The notes beneath the pieces are model-generated. The model saw only the letters and a list, made by a program, of their open reading frames with translations. It made no database searches and was not told where the DNA came from. The position numbers were made by a program, and so were the translations under genes. DNA of 7,631 nt from the IMG/VR virus record IMGVR_UViG_2695420456_000026; one strand, 5' to 3'. Within the stretch, counting starts at the first letter, position 1. The number at the start of each line of letters is the position of its first letter. Positions 4,196 through 6,037 of the stretch are shown piece by piece. Origin of the DNA: a virus. Lineage: Duplodnaviria; Heunggongvirae; Uroviricota; Caudoviricetes.

Positions 4196-4652
4196 GGCTT
4201 ACATCCTCAGGAAATTTTCTTCTATAACGCGCCTCTGCCACATATTCCGCATAATCGGCGGCGATATTCAGTACATCAAGCCCCGTTGATTTATATTCTC
4301 TCGTGGAAAGTAAGAAAAAAGCCGCTCTAATAAGTTCTGGCATTGACGAAAGCGCATCAGCCGCATCATCAGGAACGCCGGAAAATTCCTGTTTCAGGGA
4401 ATTAAAACGATCATCACGCATAACCCCCCCATTTTCACAATCAGCAATCAGGATAGCTTTGGCCTCATTCAGCGCCGTATCAGCACTAAATTGCATGACA
4501 GCCAGTGAGTGAGGAACGAAAGCACCGGCATATTCTGTTTCGCTGGTGGCGTGCTTATGTGCCCTGTCCGCGATAACAGAAATATCAATCAGCGCGTGCA
4601 TCAGCGTTTTGATGGCTTCGGCGGCTGCGTCCGGTGTGGTTTTATTGTGCAT
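4188..4652 (-). CDS. Hypothetical protein, 154 aa (MHNKTTPDAAAEAIKTLMHALIDISVIADRAHKH...).
   Basis: ATG at 4652 with SD GGGGA 7 nt upstream; 11-nt overlap with the preceding gene (ATGCACAATAA). Confidence 0.6.
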   Translation of the reverse strand: MHNKTTPDAAAEAIKTLMHALIDISVIADRAHKHATSETEYAGAFVPHSLAVMQFSADTALNEAKAILIADCENGGVMRDDRFNSLKQEFSGVPDDAADALSSMPELIRAAFFLLSTREYKSTGLDVLNIAADYAEYVAEARYRRKFPEDVSHA

Positions 4653-4854
4653 AAAGCATCCCCTGAATATTCGTGTTAATCATTCCGGCACGTTTTGTGA
4701 TTTCCTGTAATGATTCCCTTGTGGCGACAATTGCTTCATCTGGTAAGTGGTAATTACACACCACGCGACCTTTATCCACATTGACCAGTAGCTGCCCTGT
4801 GAATTTCTCACGAAACTGAATGCGGTTAAGGTCAGTAAGTGACAGATTAATCAT
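4642..4854 (-). CDS. Hypothetical protein, about 70 aa (MINLSLTDLNRIQFREKFTGQLLVNVDKGRVVCNYHLPDEAIV...).
   Basis: Preferred start is the ATG at 4854 with SD GGAGG 6 nt upstream; the longer track start at 4896 has no such support. Confidence 0.55.
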   Translation of the reverse strand: MINLSLTDLNRIQFREKFTGQLLVNVDKGRVVCNYHLPDEAIVATRESLQEITKRAGMINTNIQGMLYAQ

Positions 4855-5044
4855 GGCGCACCTCCTGACGAATACGGGCGGCAAATACAGCAACACAACC
4901 GGACGGGCAACGGTTACGCGCTTCGCGTTCCGTCCAGGCGGTTACGTGGATGATTTGAGATTCTCCGGCACTCAGTGCCAGAAAACGCCACACAAAGGCC
5001 GTTTGTGTGTGTACAAGGTGTGGTATATGATTTACGGCAACCAT
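4847..5044 (-). CDS. Small Cys/His-containing protein, 65 aa (MVAVNHIPHLVHTQTAFVWRF...RNRCPSGCVAVFAARIRQEVRHD); candidate first gene of the operon.
   Basis: It is the 3' end of the 314-aa track ORF, but only this part has a strong SD (AGGAG, 5-nt spacer) before an ATG (5044); stop TAA overlaps the next start by 8 nt (ATGATTAA). Confidence 0.45.
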   Translation of the reverse strand: MVAVNHIPHLVHTQTAFVWRFLALSAGESQIIHVTAWTEREARNRCPSGCVAVFAARIRQEVRHD

Positions 5045-5106
5045 AACGGCTCCTAGTTTACGTTGTTGGTTAGACGCCCCGTATGTGTTCCCAGCACTGC
5101 GGGGCG

Positions 5107-5177
5107 TTGATTTTTGTGTAATGGCAAGTACAATGGTAATTACCATGTAGGTATAGCAATAAAGGGTAATTACCATG
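5107..5177 (+). promoter_or_regulatory. Candidate sigma70 promoter (TTGATT 5107-5112, 16-bp spacer, TACAAT 5129-5134) with two operator-like copies of the perfect palindrome GGTAATTACC (5135-5144 and 5165-5174; shared 12-mer GGTAATTACCAT).
   Basis: Palindromes are 30 bp centre-to-centre; the first overlaps the -10/start region, the second ends at the RHH start codon. The divergent operon must also initiate in this 5045-5175 interval. Confidence 0.55.
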
Positions 5178-5348
5178 TCAACACCATTAGAAAAACGTTC
5201 GCCTCCATACCAAATGCGATTACCGGAAGACTTCAGAGCGCAGCTAGAAGAAGCAGCTAAGGCCGATGGCGACACATCTTTAGCCACTTGGATTAAACGC
5301 GTTCTCCGCAAAGAATTACAGCAACGCGGCATAGAACCCAAAGGATAA
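5175..5348 (+). CDS. Arc/MetJ-type ribbon-helix-helix DNA-binding protein, 57 aa (MSTPLEKRSPPYQMRLPEDFRAQLEEAAKADGDTSLATWIKRVLRKELQQRGIEPKG).
   Basis: Absent from the ORF track (under 60 aa); read by hand. The xRLPxEL...A...G.S.N..I pattern is typical of the Arc family; the palindromic operators overlap its own promoter and start. Confidence 0.7.
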   Translation: MSTPLEKRSPPYQMRLPEDFRAQLEEAAKADGDTSLATWIKRVLRKELQQRGIEPKG

Positions 5349-5405
5349 AAACTATCAGCGCCGTGGTGTGAGGTATTACGGCGCATTGCTATGCAGGACA
5401 ACACA

Positions 5406-5579
5406 ATGACCGATAAAGAATTGACCAAAACATTATCACCGGCACGGAAAAGACGGCGCAGAAAGATAGAGCATGAATCAGAAAGATTCGCGCCATGTGC
5501 TTTTGCCCTTGAGCAATTCCTTAAAGAGTACAGGGAAACGCGCCCATTGCAGGTATGGCAACGAACTGAACCAGACTGA
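5406..5579 (+). CDS. Possible small basic protein, 57 aa (MTDKELTKTLSPARKRRRRKIEHESERFAPCAFALEQFLKEYRETRPLQVWQRTEPD).
   Basis: ATG at 5406 with AGGA about 8 nt upstream (track ORF starts at the in-frame ATG 5391); lies between the RHH gene and the terminator on the same strand. No family recognised. Confidence 0.35.
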   Translation: MTDKELTKTLSPARKRRRRKIEHESERFAPCAFALEQFLKEYRETRPLQVWQRTEPD

Positions 5580-5673
5580 TAGCATTGCCCACCAGCCTGA
5601 TAGCGGCTATCATCCCCGTGCTTATGTTTGGGATCATATACACATAAGGCGCAGCGGGTTATCTGTTCAGAAA

Positions 5674-5702
5674 GGCGGCTCCATTTCGGGGCCGCTTTTT
5701 TT
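5674..5702 (+). terminator. Rho-independent terminator: GGCGGCTCC-ATTTC-GGGGCCGC followed by seven T.
   Basis: 8-bp GC-rich stem (one G-U pair), 5-nt loop, T-run 5696-5702; closes the plus-strand RHH cassette. Weaker in the opposite direction (only TTT). Confidence 0.75.
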
Positions 5703-5848
5703 ATGCCTGAAAAACCCCAATTTTGTGGTTTTCCAGTCTCACCAGGGCGAACGAATCCCCGCCCACGTTCTGGCGTATATTCAATCTTCATGGTTATAGC
5801 TCTGTGTTCAGATGATTGATGTGTGGCGGCTGTGTGCCGCCAGCGTGA

Positions 5849-6037
5849 TTAATGAACTGCCTTGCAGCTATCCTTCCAGGCCAGAACCTCGGATAAAAAC
5901 CAGCCAACGGAACGACCGCCAAGTTTACGACGTGATGGGAATTGTCCGGCCTTTTCCAGGCGGTAGCGACACGTACGGCTAAGGCCGGTTAGTTTTTCGC
6001 ATTCTTTTTCACGTATAAACCGATCAGTGCTTAACAC
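5849..6037 (-). CDS. alpA: AlpA-family phage regulatory protein (MerR-like HTH; Xis/Vis-like), 62 aa.
   Basis: ...ECEKLTGLSRTCRYRLEKAGQFPSRRKLGGRSVGWFLSEVLAW is the typical AlpA HTH block; GTG start at 6037 with AGGGGG 5 nt upstream; located just downstream of int. Confidence 0.85.
   Translation of the reverse strand: MLSTDRFIREKECEKLTGLSRTCRYRLEKAGQFPSRRKLGGRSVGWFLSEVLAWKDSCKAVH

What the first reader, a model, noticed from the sequence alone, without database searches (positions are those of the whole stretch)
4847..5044. Unannotated-looking 65-aa Cys/His ORF with the strongest SD in the operon
It is the tail of a 314-aa track ORF that is otherwise implausible as a gene, but its last 65 codons have AGGAG-N5-ATG and are coupled to the next gene by an 8-nt overlap. 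It contains three His in the N-terminal third and a CPSGC motif, so it could be a small metal-binding regulator at the head of the operon.
Basis: partly seen in the sequence, partly recalled or inferred. Interest (0 to 1): 0.45.

Follow-up and report, generated by a model that had tools for sequence, protein, structure and literature searches.

The report
Icd-like cell-division inhibitor gene, already annotated
The 65-codon ORF is a real, conserved gene, but it is already annotated in RefSeq: it is a relative of phage P1's Icd, a small protein that blocks cell division by binding FtsZ, sitting as the first, translationally coupled gene of a phage-satellite replication operon, and it is not a metal-binding regulator.

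Summary
The ORF exists as described, on the minus strand (ATG 5044, TAA 4849-4847, AGGAG-N5-ATG, 8-nt ATGATTAA overlap with the next gene). It is not unannotated. RefSeq calls these exact coordinates WP_000226782.1, "host cell division inhibitor Icd-like protein", and it scores 64.8 bits against NCBIfam NF033153 (cut-off 25). It aligns with phage P1 Icd over the 40-residue core shown experimentally to bind FtsZ.

Related islands show dN/dS of 0-0.4 in this frame and above 1 in the other two frames. An SD and ATG are kept behind at least four unrelated leaders. The stop nearly always overlaps the start of a variable downstream gene, as with P1 icd-ant.

No Cys or His is conserved across the family, so the metal-binding idea fails. 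The SD is not the strongest in the operon.

Side findings are more interesting than the ORF. The "implausible" 314-aa ORF is kept open by selection: 67 of 68 relatives have such an ORF, and synonymous sites of embedded opposite-strand genes avoid antisense stops. The leader hairpin is an intrinsic terminator for a transcript antisense to the icd start. An unannotated RHH gene with type-specific operators sits divergently.

Verdict: known gene family, low novelty.

The parts
4847..5044 (-). icd-like CDS, 65 aa (RefSeq WP_000226782.1). The Icd core is residues 17-59.
   Evidence: NF033153 64.8 bits vs cut-off 25; PGAP annotation at identical coordinates; 37% identity to P1 Icd over the core; dN/dS 0-0.4; AF2 model beta-beta-alpha-beta.
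5050..5054 (-). Shine-Dalgarno AGGAG, 5 nt upstream of ATG 5044
   Evidence: Sequence; an SD-like element is kept before the same ATG in at least 4 unrelated leader types; duplex energy -6.5 kcal/mol.
4847..4854 (-). ATGATTAA stop/start overlap between icd-like and the next gene (translational coupling junction)
   Evidence: Sequence; 4-, 8- or 11-nt overlaps are kept in nearly all 63 unique contexts and in distant elements although the downstream gene differs; the same arrangement occurs in P1 icd/ant1.
4859..4867 (-). SD of the downstream gene (CAGGAGGTG), embedded in icd-like codons R59-V62
   Evidence: Duplex energy -11.6 kcal/mol, the strongest in the operon; explains the conserved RIRQ(E/G) tail.
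4642..4854 (-). Downstream coupled gene, 70 aa, function unknown (phrog_340)
5153..5181 (-). Candidate promoter of the icd-like operon: -35 TTGACA 5181-5176, 17 nt, -10 TGCTAT 5158-5153
   Evidence: The same TTGAC(A/G)+17 nt layout is seen in at least 8 leader types and in distant loci. The -10 is weak in the window and the consensus scan missed it. Inferred, no expression data.
5133..5146 (.). Operator-like palindrome ATGGTAATTACCAT (copy 1)
   Evidence: Sequence. A second copy of GGTAATTACC lies at 5165-5174. Other island types carry different paired repeats at the same two positions.
5165..5174 (.). Operator-like palindrome GGTAATTACC (copy 2), abutting the ATG of the RHH gene and lying in the spacer of the icd promoter
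5073..5119 (+). Intrinsic-terminator hairpin (5073-5108) plus T-run (5108-5119), on the strand antisense to icd
   Evidence: 95.3% of cells paired on the + strand vs 86.7% on the icd strand. 20 G.U cells at 5 pair positions are C.A/A.C mismatches on the icd strand. Two pairs covary. Hairpin region -25.9 kcal/mol on + vs -18.4 on -. The same asymmetry appears in L098/L101.
5003..5031 (+). Candidate promoter of an antisense RNA (TTGTGT, 17 nt, TATGAT) inside icd codons 5-14; predicted RNA about 5038-5118
   Evidence: 8/12 match. The -10 persists as TATGAT or TATGCT in three N-terminal sequence types. The predicted RNA folds at -33.6 kcal/mol, z=-4.2, with the anti-SD in a loop. Inferred only.
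5045..5848 (-). Long open frame between the alpA stop and the icd ATG (268 codons, first ATG 5791); in the window it is in phase with icd, giving the 314-aa ORF
   Evidence: 0 stops vs 17 and 29 in the other frames over the alpA-to-icd interval, P~2e-6; present in 67/68 unique relatives, in phase with icd in 34; ends at -27..+13 of the icd ATG; antisense-stop avoidance in the embedded genes.
5175..5348 (+). Divergent 57-aa RHH (Arc / YlcI-YnfO-like) gene, candidate repressor; not annotated in the identical RefSeq locus
   Evidence: phrog_228 Arc-like repressor 1.5e-6; NF041551 E=1.4e-3, below cut-off; Pfam Arc E=0.038; homologous genes annotated as YlcI/YnfO in relatives; dN/dS lower than the antisense frame.
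5391..5579 (+). Second small plus-strand gene (62 aa, phrog_21027)
5849..6037 (-). alpA (PICI activator), same strand and same frame as the long ORF
   Evidence: PF05930 E=6.7e-17. Its stop codon is the only in-frame stop between 6037 and 4849. Role in PICI induction: PMC6092414 and bioRxiv 10.1101/2022.09.08.507074.

Best explanation
The ORF encodes a small Icd-family protein in an EcCIEDL933-like, capsid-forming phage-inducible chromosomal island (int, alpA, icd-like, small ORFs, DUF4222, RepA helicase, SSB, PerC, capsid genes).

Shown here: it is a conserved, purifying-selected gene with its own SD and ATG. It contains the whole region homologous to the 40-residue core of phage P1 Icd. Its stop overlaps the start of the next gene, whose SD lies inside its last codons.

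Inferred from the P1 homologue:
(i) When the operon is switched on during island induction, the protein binds FtsZ and blocks Z-ring formation. This holds the host cell undivided, or kills it, while the island replicates and packages.
(ii) Translation of this first cistron is the gate for the downstream genes. Ribosomes terminating at ATGATTAA re-initiate on the next gene, just as icd translation is required for ant in P1.

Access to its RBS is probably regulated. In some relatives a C4 antisense RNA sits directly upstream, as in P1. In the window that place is taken by a leader with operator repeats, next to a divergent RHH gene, and by a terminator for a transcript antisense to the icd start.
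For: Family membership: NF033153 64.8 bits vs cut-off 25, and P1 Icd itself scores 52.6 on the same model over residues 12-51. BLASTP to P1 Icd gives 37% identity, E=2e-7 in the pairwise comparison. RefSeq annotates the same CDS.

Function of the homologue: P1 Icd blocks Z-rings, binds FtsZ in two-hybrid and pull-down assays, and has its minimal active core at residues 12-51 (PMC11897509). Family-invariant window residues R20, E39, A56 and R57 correspond to P1 R15, E32, A48 and R49, which that paper's AlphaFold3 model places at the FtsZ interface. The AF2 model (beta16-24, beta29-36, alpha39-45, beta50-58, core pLDDT 76-85) has the same elements described for Icd12-51.

Selection: dN/dS is 0-0.4 in frame and >1 out of frame.

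Coupling: overlaps ATGATTAA, ATGCTTAA, ATGCCTGA, ATGCGTAA, ATGCACAATAA and ATGA are kept with at least 6 different downstream genes and in elements only 40-45% identical. P1 icd/ant1 overlap by ATGA, and icd is annotated as required for ant expression. Experimental precedent for such coupling exists in isrK-orf45-anrP (PMC4825925).

A related island's Icd-like gene was required for growth arrest triggered by a phage protein (bioRxiv 10.1101/2023.04.06.535777).

C4 and isrK lie directly upstream of icd-like in L004, L007, L010, L012 and L016.
Against: No experiment on this protein or on any PICI Icd-like protein was found. Identity to P1 Icd is only 37% and P1 Y24 is not conserved. The FtsZ contact residues come from a predicted complex, not a solved one. 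There is no solved structure in the family. The window has no C4 RNA and the downstream gene is not an antirepressor, so the P1 immI circuit is only partly reproduced. PHROG labels two matching families 'transcriptional repressor'. The promoter and the antisense RNA are sequence inferences only.
Confidence: 0.72

Rival explanations
1. Small metal-binding (Cys/His) regulator.
For: The window protein has H6, H9, H12 and C46-x3-C50.
Against: None of these positions is conserved in the family. C46 is L/S/A/I/V and C50 is P/H/R/F/M/Y. The His residues sit in a variable N-terminus with pLDDT below 50. CxxxC is not a standard zinc knuckle (own knowledge). Only two Cys are present. There is no zinc-ribbon or HTH family hit.
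Confidence: 0.03
2. The functional product is the 314-aa protein (long N-terminal extension fused to Icd), and the 65-aa form is an annotation artefact.
For: The frame is open from the alpA stop to the icd stop. PGAP and other pipelines call long Icd-like proteins of 200-644 aa. A long-form Icd-like gene was the likely growth-arrest effector in ECOR61.
Against: The long frame is in phase with icd in only 34 of 68 unique relatives. In the rest it stops at -27, -25, -8, -4 or +13 relative to the icd ATG. The SD and ATG of the short form are conserved everywhere. The extension is Ser/Arg/Cys-rich and has no family hit. Its dN/dS is near 1 in the leader and higher than that of the opposite-strand genes. 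The ATG at 5791 has almost no SD. Distant elements lack the long ORF yet keep the short gene.
Confidence: 0.1
3. The peptide itself is irrelevant: the ORF is only a leader cistron that opens the RBS of the downstream gene, like orf45 upstream of anrP.
For: The stop/start overlap is conserved and the next gene's SD lies inside the ORF. In isrK-orf45-anrP the nucleotide sequence is conserved but the amino-acid sequence varies.
Against: Here the amino-acid sequence is what is conserved: dN/dS is 0-0.4, with invariant F21, E39, A42, R43, P47 and R57 across members at 40% identity. The homologue P1 Icd is active on its own when expressed from a plasmid.
Confidence: 0.08
4. Its selected role is defence (abortive infection or superinfection exclusion): an incoming phage triggers the island, and the Icd-like protein arrests the infected cell.
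For: In ECOR61, growth arrest triggered by phage orf24 needed the Icd-like gene and five linked genes including a primase. This is mechanistically compatible with FtsZ inhibition.
Against: There are no PADLOC hits for any protein of the operon. EcCIEDL933 did not reduce helper-phage reproduction. The ECOR61 reconstitution was weak. Nothing here distinguishes defence from ordinary satellite induction.
Confidence: 0.2
5. DNA-binding transcriptional repressor, as PHROGs 1743 and 6196 are labelled.
For: PHROG hits E=5e-23 and 7e-18 carry that label.
Against: No HTH, RHH or other DNA-binding family is detected. The predicted fold is three strands and one short helix. The label is unverified and probably inherited from old annotations of immunity regions (own inference). 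The curated NCBIfam name and the P1 experiments point to FtsZ.
Confidence: 0.03

Closest known systems
Phage P1 Icd (73 aa; immI operon c4-icd-ant1/2)
   Same: Same NCBIfam family. Shared motifs F[IV]WRF, TE.EAR, P.G and F.AR. Similar size. First translated gene of its operon. Stop overlaps the start of the next gene. The predicted three strands plus a short helix match the active core Icd12-51.
   Different: 37% identity. No C4 RNA and no a/b target sites in the window. The downstream gene is a 70-aa protein of unknown function, not an antirepressor. The host element is a PICI satellite rather than a plasmid prophage. The P1 C-terminal 22 residues are absent.
Icd-like genes of P4-like satellites and PICIs (RefSeq WP_ families; noted as accessory genes in Enterobacter satellites, PMC13612085)
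   Same: The window protein is one of these: same annotation, same position after int and alpA and before the primase/helicase.
   Different: None of substance. The window copy belongs to the leader type that has a hairpin terminator instead of C4 and isrK.
Gifsy-1 isrK-orf45-anrP (PMC4825925)
   Same: A small upstream ORF whose stop overlaps the start of the next gene; translation of the upstream ORF is required for the downstream one; isrK RNA is found next to C4 upstream of icd-like genes in relatives.
   Different: The orf45 peptide is not conserved and was not shown here to be an Icd homologue. The window has no isrK.
Lambda Kil, T7 Gp0.4, T5 Hdi (other small phage FtsZ inhibitors)
   Same: Small phage-encoded proteins that block Z-ring assembly. 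This is what the Icd-like protein is expected to work like.
   Different: Unrelated sequence and fold: they are helix-turn-helix hairpins, whereas Icd is strand-rich (PMC11897509).

Membership tests
Icd-like host cell division inhibitor (NCBIfam NF033153) | Score above the curated cut-off of the family model | tested here: met
   64.8 bits vs 25, E=5.2e-18, residues 17-60 cover model positions 1-48. P1 Icd scores 52.6 on the same model.
Icd-like host cell division inhibitor (NCBIfam NF033153) | Conserved core motifs shared with P1 Icd (F.WRF, TE.EAR, P.G, F.AR) | tested here: met
   Pairwise alignment. Family alignment with F21, E39, A42, R43, P47, R57 invariant and W19, R20, A36, F54, A56 at 90% or more.
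Icd-like host cell division inhibitor (NCBIfam NF033153) | Fold of the active core: three beta strands and one short helix (as described for Icd12-51) | tested here: met
   AF2 model E16-24, E29-36, H39-45, E50-58, core pLDDT 76-85. The comparison is with a published description, not a superposition.
Icd-like host cell division inhibitor (NCBIfam NF033153) | Binds FtsZ and blocks Z-ring formation and cell division | not testable with these tools
   Shown only for P1 Icd. Four of the predicted contact residues are conserved.
P1-type immI module (c4 RNA - icd - ant) | C4 antisense RNA (RF01695) directly upstream on the same strand | tested here: not met
   No Rfam hit at E<=1 in the window. C4 is found in the P1 control and in relatives L004, L007, L010, L012 and L016.
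P1-type immI module (c4 RNA - icd - ant) | icd stop overlaps the start of the downstream gene (translational coupling) | tested here: met
   ATGATTAA in the window, conserved across contexts. P1: icd 48470-48691 and ant1 from 48688. Coupling itself was not tested.
P1-type immI module (c4 RNA - icd - ant) | Downstream gene is an antirepressor (Ant/KilAC/BRO) | tested here: not met
   The 70-aa downstream protein has no Pfam or NCBIfam family, only phrog_340 of unknown function.
Small Cys/His metal-binding protein | Three or four ligand residues conserved across homologues | tested here: not met
   C46, C50, H6 and H9 are variable. H12 is conserved only within the E. coli subgroup.
Known anti-phage defence systems (PADLOC-DB 2.0) | Match to a defence-system protein model | tested here: not met
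   No hit for the Icd-like protein, the 314-aa ORF or 7 neighbouring proteins.

The most novel reading that the evidence does not exclude
The icd-like start codon is the convergence point of three control layers that have not been described for Gram-negative PICIs.
(1) A 250-530-codon 'spacer' ORF runs from the alpA stop to the icd RBS, antisense through the RHH genes. Its frame, but not its peptide, is maintained by selection on the synonymous sites of those genes. Ribosomes can therefore follow alpA-driven transcripts and protect them from Rho across the interval, then terminate or read through at icd.
(2) An ~80-nt cis-antisense RNA ends at the conserved terminator 5073-5119 and masks the icd SD and ATG, replacing C4.
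(3) A divergent RHH repressor has island-type-specific operators. This would be the 'missing' PICI repressor.
Probability: 0.3. Interest if true: 0.6.

Novelty: already known. Interest (0 to 1): 0.27.

Why it matters
The ORF itself adds nothing new. It is a catalogued member of a family whose founder, P1 Icd, now has a known target (FtsZ). Its value is as a pointer. Icd-like genes occur in about 1,550 of 5,426 complete E. coli genomes, always at the entry to the replication operon of satellites, yet no PICI study found here mentions them.

If the protein does arrest division on induction, it may contribute to the growth arrest seen when such an island is triggered (ECOR61). The surrounding control region may also answer the open question of whether Gram-negative PICIs have a repressor (PMC6092414). 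It offers a clean natural case of an ORF kept open without peptide constraint, overlapping real genes in antisense.

It also flags annotation artefacts. Long 'Icd-like' proteins and 'ash family' pseudogenes in RefSeq are read-through frames or translations of C4/isrK RNAs. In the same locus a real RHH gene goes unannotated.

Tried and rejected
- **Rfam on the window:** at permissive threshold there is no C4, isrK or other credible RNA. The only hit is a spurious snoRNA at E=0.33.
- **Pfam on the 65-aa protein:** no family.
- **Structure comparisons:** Foldseek against PDB (best E=0.27) and a profile search of PDB sequences (best E=0.25) found nothing usable.
- **PADLOC:** no hits.
- **Genome-contig scan:** only 3 loci, because that collection holds one genome per species. 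I used E. coli genomes and IMG/VR instead.
- **Consensus promoter scan:** it missed the icd-strand promoter, whose -10 is weak in the window. The promoter is proposed only from its conserved layout in other leader types.
- **dN/dS of the long ORF:** this cannot separate the two strands where they overlap, because third codon positions coincide. I replaced it with a synonymous-shuffle test of antisense stops.
- **AlpA as an antiterminator:** I considered that AlpA might act like Pseudomonas AlpA, which would explain read-through. The window AlpA matches only PDB 8c3t and not that protein at E<=0.01, so the idea is unsupported.
- **A conserved RBS hairpin in the icd mRNA:** inspected by eye. It is not consistent across leader types and I did not pursue it.
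- **Naming the island:** I did not confirm that the window is EcCIEDL933 itself. I showed only that it is 99.9-100% identical over 801 nt (window 4600-5400) to O157:H7 and O55:H7 loci that carry capsid genes.
Full report
**1. What is at the coordinates**

The feature lies on the minus strand. Reading 5200 down to 4600 gives ...AAACTAGGAGCCGTT ATG GTT GCC ... CGC CAT GAT TAA. The ATG is at 5044-5042, AGGAG at 5054-5050 (five nt before the ATG), and TAA at 4849-4847. The ATG of the next ORF is at 4854-4852, so the two genes share ATGATTAA.

The product is 65 aa: MVAVNHIPHLVHTQTAFVWRFLALSAGESQIIHVTAWTEREARNRCPSGCVAVFAARIRQEVRHD. It has His at 6, 9 and 12 and CPSGC at 46-50. It is the last 65 codons of a 314-codon ORF, 5791-4847.

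Two qualifiers in the title are wrong.
- **Annotation.** The locus is 100% identical over 801 nt to E. coli O55:H7 DEC5B and 99.9-100% identical to many O157:H7 genomes. There PGAP annotates exactly these coordinates as WP_000226782.1, "host cell division inhibitor Icd-like protein".
- **SD strength.** The SD is not the strongest in the operon. SD:anti-SD duplex energies are -6.5 kcal/mol here, -11.6 for the next gene and -10.7 for alpA.

**2. What it is**

The protein has no Pfam family. It scores 64.8 bits (cut-off 25, E=5e-18) on NCBIfam NF033153, phage_ICD_like. Phage P1 Icd scores 52.6 bits on the same model over its residues 12-51. The two proteins align directly at 37% identity over 52 residues, E=2e-7 for the pairwise comparison.

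P1 Icd has recently been characterised (PMC11897509). It stops Z-ring formation and binds FtsZ in two-hybrid and pull-down assays. Residues 12-51 are the minimal active core, which is the stretch the family model covers. The window protein contains the whole equivalent region (F17-R59).

An AlphaFold2 model built on 17 homologues gives strand 16-24, strand 29-36, helix 39-45 and strand 50-58, with pLDDT 76-85 in the core and a disordered N-terminus. These are the elements the paper describes for Icd12-51.

In a family-wide alignment the invariant residues are F21, E39, A42, R43, P47 and R57. Window R20, E39, A56 and R57 correspond to P1 R15, E32, A48 and R49, which the paper's AlphaFold3 model places at the FtsZ interface. 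That is suggestive only, because the complex is predicted. No solved structure resembles the family by fold or by sequence.

**3.

I collected 15 E. coli-group loci at various divergences and 80 IMG/VR contigs, and later two more distant element types.

- **Selection.** Nei-Gojobori dN/dS over the core is 0-0.41 in the annotated frame (dS up to >1) and mostly above 1 in the two alternative frames.
- **Start signal.** The ATG and an SD-like element are kept behind at least four unrelated leader sequences: aaacTAGGAGccgttATG, aacAGGAGtaacgattATG, tagAGAGGTAAatttATG and ctGAGGAGgctgcaaacATG.
- **Junction.** The stop overlaps the start of the next gene in nearly all 63 unique contexts. The forms seen are ATGATTAA, ATGCTTAA, ATGCCTGA, ATGCGTAA, ATGCATAA, ATGCACAATAA, ATGTGCAATAA and ATGA. 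The downstream gene differs between contexts. Overlaps of 8 and 11 nt recur in elements whose Icd-like protein is only 40-45% identical.
- **The next gene's SD.** CAGGAGGTG (4867-4859) is encoded by icd codons R59-V62. This explains the conserved RIRQ(E/G) tail and the mosaic last three or four residues.

P1 has the same arrangement: icd and ant1 overlap by ATGA, and icd is annotated as required for ant expression. Coupling of this kind was demonstrated experimentally for isrK-orf45-anrP (PMC4825925).

The gene is real.

**4. The metal-binding idea**

Cys46 is Ser in several E. coli-group homologues and Leu in P1. Family-wide it is L/S/A/I/V. Cys50 is P/H/R/F/M/Y elsewhere. The three His residues lie in the variable N-terminus, which has pLDDT below 50. 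Only His12 is constant, and only within the E. coli subgroup. With two non-conserved Cys and no conserved ligand set, a metal site is not supported.

Part of the N-terminal conservation may instead be at the DNA level (see 6b).

**5. Context and likely role**

The window carries, all on the minus strand:
- int (7631-6402)
- alpA (6037-5849)
- icd-like (5044-4847)
- four small ORFs
- a DUF4222 protein
- a RepA-type helicase (3660-2260)
- SSB
- a PerC-like protein

In the identical RefSeq locus these are followed by major capsid and head-decoration genes, next to roxA and pepT. This is the layout of the capsid-forming PICI EcCIEDL933. That island's induction needs alpA, which a helper phage switches on (bioRxiv 10.1101/2022.09.08.507074 and PMC6092414). 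Neither paper mentions icd.

A matching sequence occurs in 1,552 of 5,426 complete E. coli genomes, with up to six places per genome. A recent survey lists Icd-like proteins in most Enterobacter satellites (PMC13612085).

The best-supported reading has two parts. On induction the protein transiently blocks host division through FtsZ. Its translation also gates the downstream genes. The first part is inferred from homology, the second from conserved anatomy.

In ECOR61, a related locus (an Icd-like gene plus five linked genes including a primase) caused growth arrest when a phage protein was expressed. The arrest was lost when the Icd-like gene was removed (bioRxiv 10.1101/2023.04.06.535777). 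That fits either satellite induction or a defence role. No operon protein matches PADLOC.

**6. What else is there**

(a) **The long ORF is not chance.**
- From the alpA ATG (6037) to the icd stop (4847), the shared frame has only two stops, alpA's and icd's. The other two frames have 17 and 29. For the 268 codons between alpA and icd, P is about 2e-6 from base composition.
- In 67 of 68 unique relatives the 900 nt upstream of icd contain an open frame of at least 150 codons on the icd strand (median 270 of a possible 300). On the other strand this holds for only 4 of 68.
- The long frame is in phase with icd in only 34 of the 68. Otherwise it stops at -27, -25, -8 or -4 (that is, up to or inside the SD) or at +13 relative to the icd ATG.
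- It runs antisense through the plus-strand genes, always in the phase where third codon positions coincide (73 of 73).
- Those plus-strand genes carry 2 antisense stops in that phase, against 238 and 79 in the other phases. Shuffles that preserve the protein sequence and reassign synonymous codons expect 40.5 +/- 5.3. For 14 non-redundant genes the figures are 2 observed against 13.2 +/- 2.9 expected, with 0 of 1,000 shuffles as low.
- The peptide is Ser/Arg/Cys-rich and has no family. Its dN/dS is about 0.6-1.2 in the leader and exceeds that of the opposite-strand genes where they overlap. Its ATG at 5791 has almost no SD.
- A distant element with a similar upstream arrangement has a 350-codon version. 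Elements with no co-oriented alpA upstream have the same leader and icd gene but no long ORF.

My inference is that the frame is kept open so that ribosomes can accompany alpA-driven transcripts across the antisense interval and arrive at the icd RBS, avoiding Rho-dependent polarity. Fusion to Icd would be incidental. This is untested.

It also explains database artefacts. Most 50%-identity cluster representatives with an Icd domain are "proteins" of 200-644 aa with the domain at the extreme C-terminus. PGAP calls a 595-aa Icd-like protein in one strain, and pseudogene fragments in others, including the window's own locus.

(b) **The leader hairpin (5073-5108) is a terminator on the other strand.**
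- Across 18 variants, 95.3% of cells are paired on the plus strand and 86.7% on the icd strand.
- The difference is 20 G.U cells at five pair positions. These are C.A or A.C mismatches on the icd strand. There are no G.U cells on the icd strand.
- Two pairs covary (CG/AU and GC/CG). A T-run follows on the plus strand.
- No plus-strand gene lies upstream of it in the window. It would therefore end a transcript antisense to the icd 5' end.
- A candidate promoter sits inside icd codons 5-14: TTGTGT, 17 nt, then TATGAT at 5026-5031. Its -10 persists as TATGAT or TATGCT in three different N-terminal sequence types.
- The predicted RNA (about 5038-5118) folds at -33.6 kcal/mol (z=-4.2) with the anti-SD CUCCU in a loop.
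- In relatives without this hairpin, Rfam C4 and isrK RNAs sit immediately upstream of icd-like on the same strand, as in P1. PGAP's "ash family" pseudogenes lie on these RNAs.

A cis-antisense RNA replacing C4 is therefore plausible but unproven.

(c) **A candidate repressor and its operators.**
- The leaders share TTGAC(A/G), about 17 nt, a -10-like hexamer, and two copies of a repeat that differs between island types. The window has GGTAATTACC at 5135-5144 and 5165-5174.
- A 57-aa plus-strand ORF (5175-5348) lies divergently. It matches Arc-like and YlcI/YnfO families weakly. Its homologues are annotated as YlcI/YnfO in other strains, but it is not annotated in the window's own RefSeq locus.
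- A plus-strand promoter, TTGATT-16-TACAAT (5107-5134), precedes it.
[quoted passage not shown] This module is a candidate exception.

**7. Verdict**

The finding is a correctly observed, real gene, but it is already annotated and belongs to a known, recently characterised family. The metal-binding interpretation is not supported. Novelty of the ORF is nil and interest is low. The control region around it, in particular the selected-open antisense ORF and the antisense terminator, is the part worth following up.

Noticed in passing
window 5045-5848 (-), continuing into 4847-5044: A long frame from the alpA stop to the icd start is kept open by selection. It has 0 stops vs 17 and 29 in the other frames of the alpA-to-icd interval, is present in 67/68 relatives, and the embedded opposite-strand genes avoid antisense stops at synonymous sites (2 observed vs 40.5 expected). 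The peptide itself looks unconstrained. It is absent where no co-oriented alpA lies upstream.
   Followed up: yes
window 5073-5119 (+), candidate promoter 5003-5031 (+): The conserved hairpin plus T-run is an intrinsic terminator on the strand antisense to icd (20 G.U cells on that strand only, 2 covarying pairs). It implies an ~80-nt antisense RNA over the icd SD and ATG. It occupies the place that C4 and isrK RNAs hold in other islands.
   Followed up: partly
window 5175-5348 (+), operators 5133-5146 and 5165-5174: A 57-aa Arc / YlcI-YnfO-like RHH gene divergent from icd is not annotated in the identical RefSeq locus. Paired operator-like repeats overlap the divergent promoters and differ between island types, suggesting repressor specificity classes in PICIs.
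   Followed up: partly
window 5391-5579 (+) and 5349-5390: A second small plus-strand gene (62 aa, phrog_21027) follows the RHH gene after a GC hairpin (GCGCCGT...ACGGCGC). This two-gene module is tandemly duplicated in some relatives (L006, L008), which lengthens the antisense ORF.
   Followed up: partly
L007 2215-2685, L012 2227-2748, L016 2215-2553 (PGAP features): RefSeq 'ash family protein' pseudogenes upstream of icd-like coincide with Rfam C4 (RF01695) and isrK (RF01394) RNA genes. Pfam PF10554 (Ash) hits on long Icd-like proteins fall on the same stretch, so part of that 'protein family' may be translated RNA genes.
   Followed up: partly
window 5849-6037 (-) and 5825-5841 (-): alpA is in the same reading frame as the long ORF, and its TAA is the only stop separating them. 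In 21 unique relatives the long frame opens exactly at the alpA stop. A GC-only hairpin (GGCGGCacacaGCCGCC) follows the alpA stop, with no U-run.
   Followed up: partly
L057, L059, L060, L062, L064, L067, L078, L080, L081, L095 (about 490 nt downstream of the first icd-like gene): Some islands carry a second, divergent Icd-like ORF (42-48% identity to the window protein). In L081 a C4 RNA lies downstream of the first icd-like gene.
   Followed up: no
window 4859-4867 (-): The strongest SD of the operon (CAGGAGGTG) belongs to the 70-aa downstream gene and is encoded by the last conserved codons of icd-like. The final 3-4 residues of Icd-like proteins are therefore dictated by whichever downstream gene start they overlap.
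   Followed up: yes
L098-L101 (NCBI assemblies GCA_023060505.1 and others): A 63-aa Icd-like gene with the same promoter, operator, hairpin and CTAACCA leader heads a different small element. That element carries a Mu-like gpT capsid gene and a tape-measure gene, and a DUF3950 gene lies divergently.
   Followed up: no
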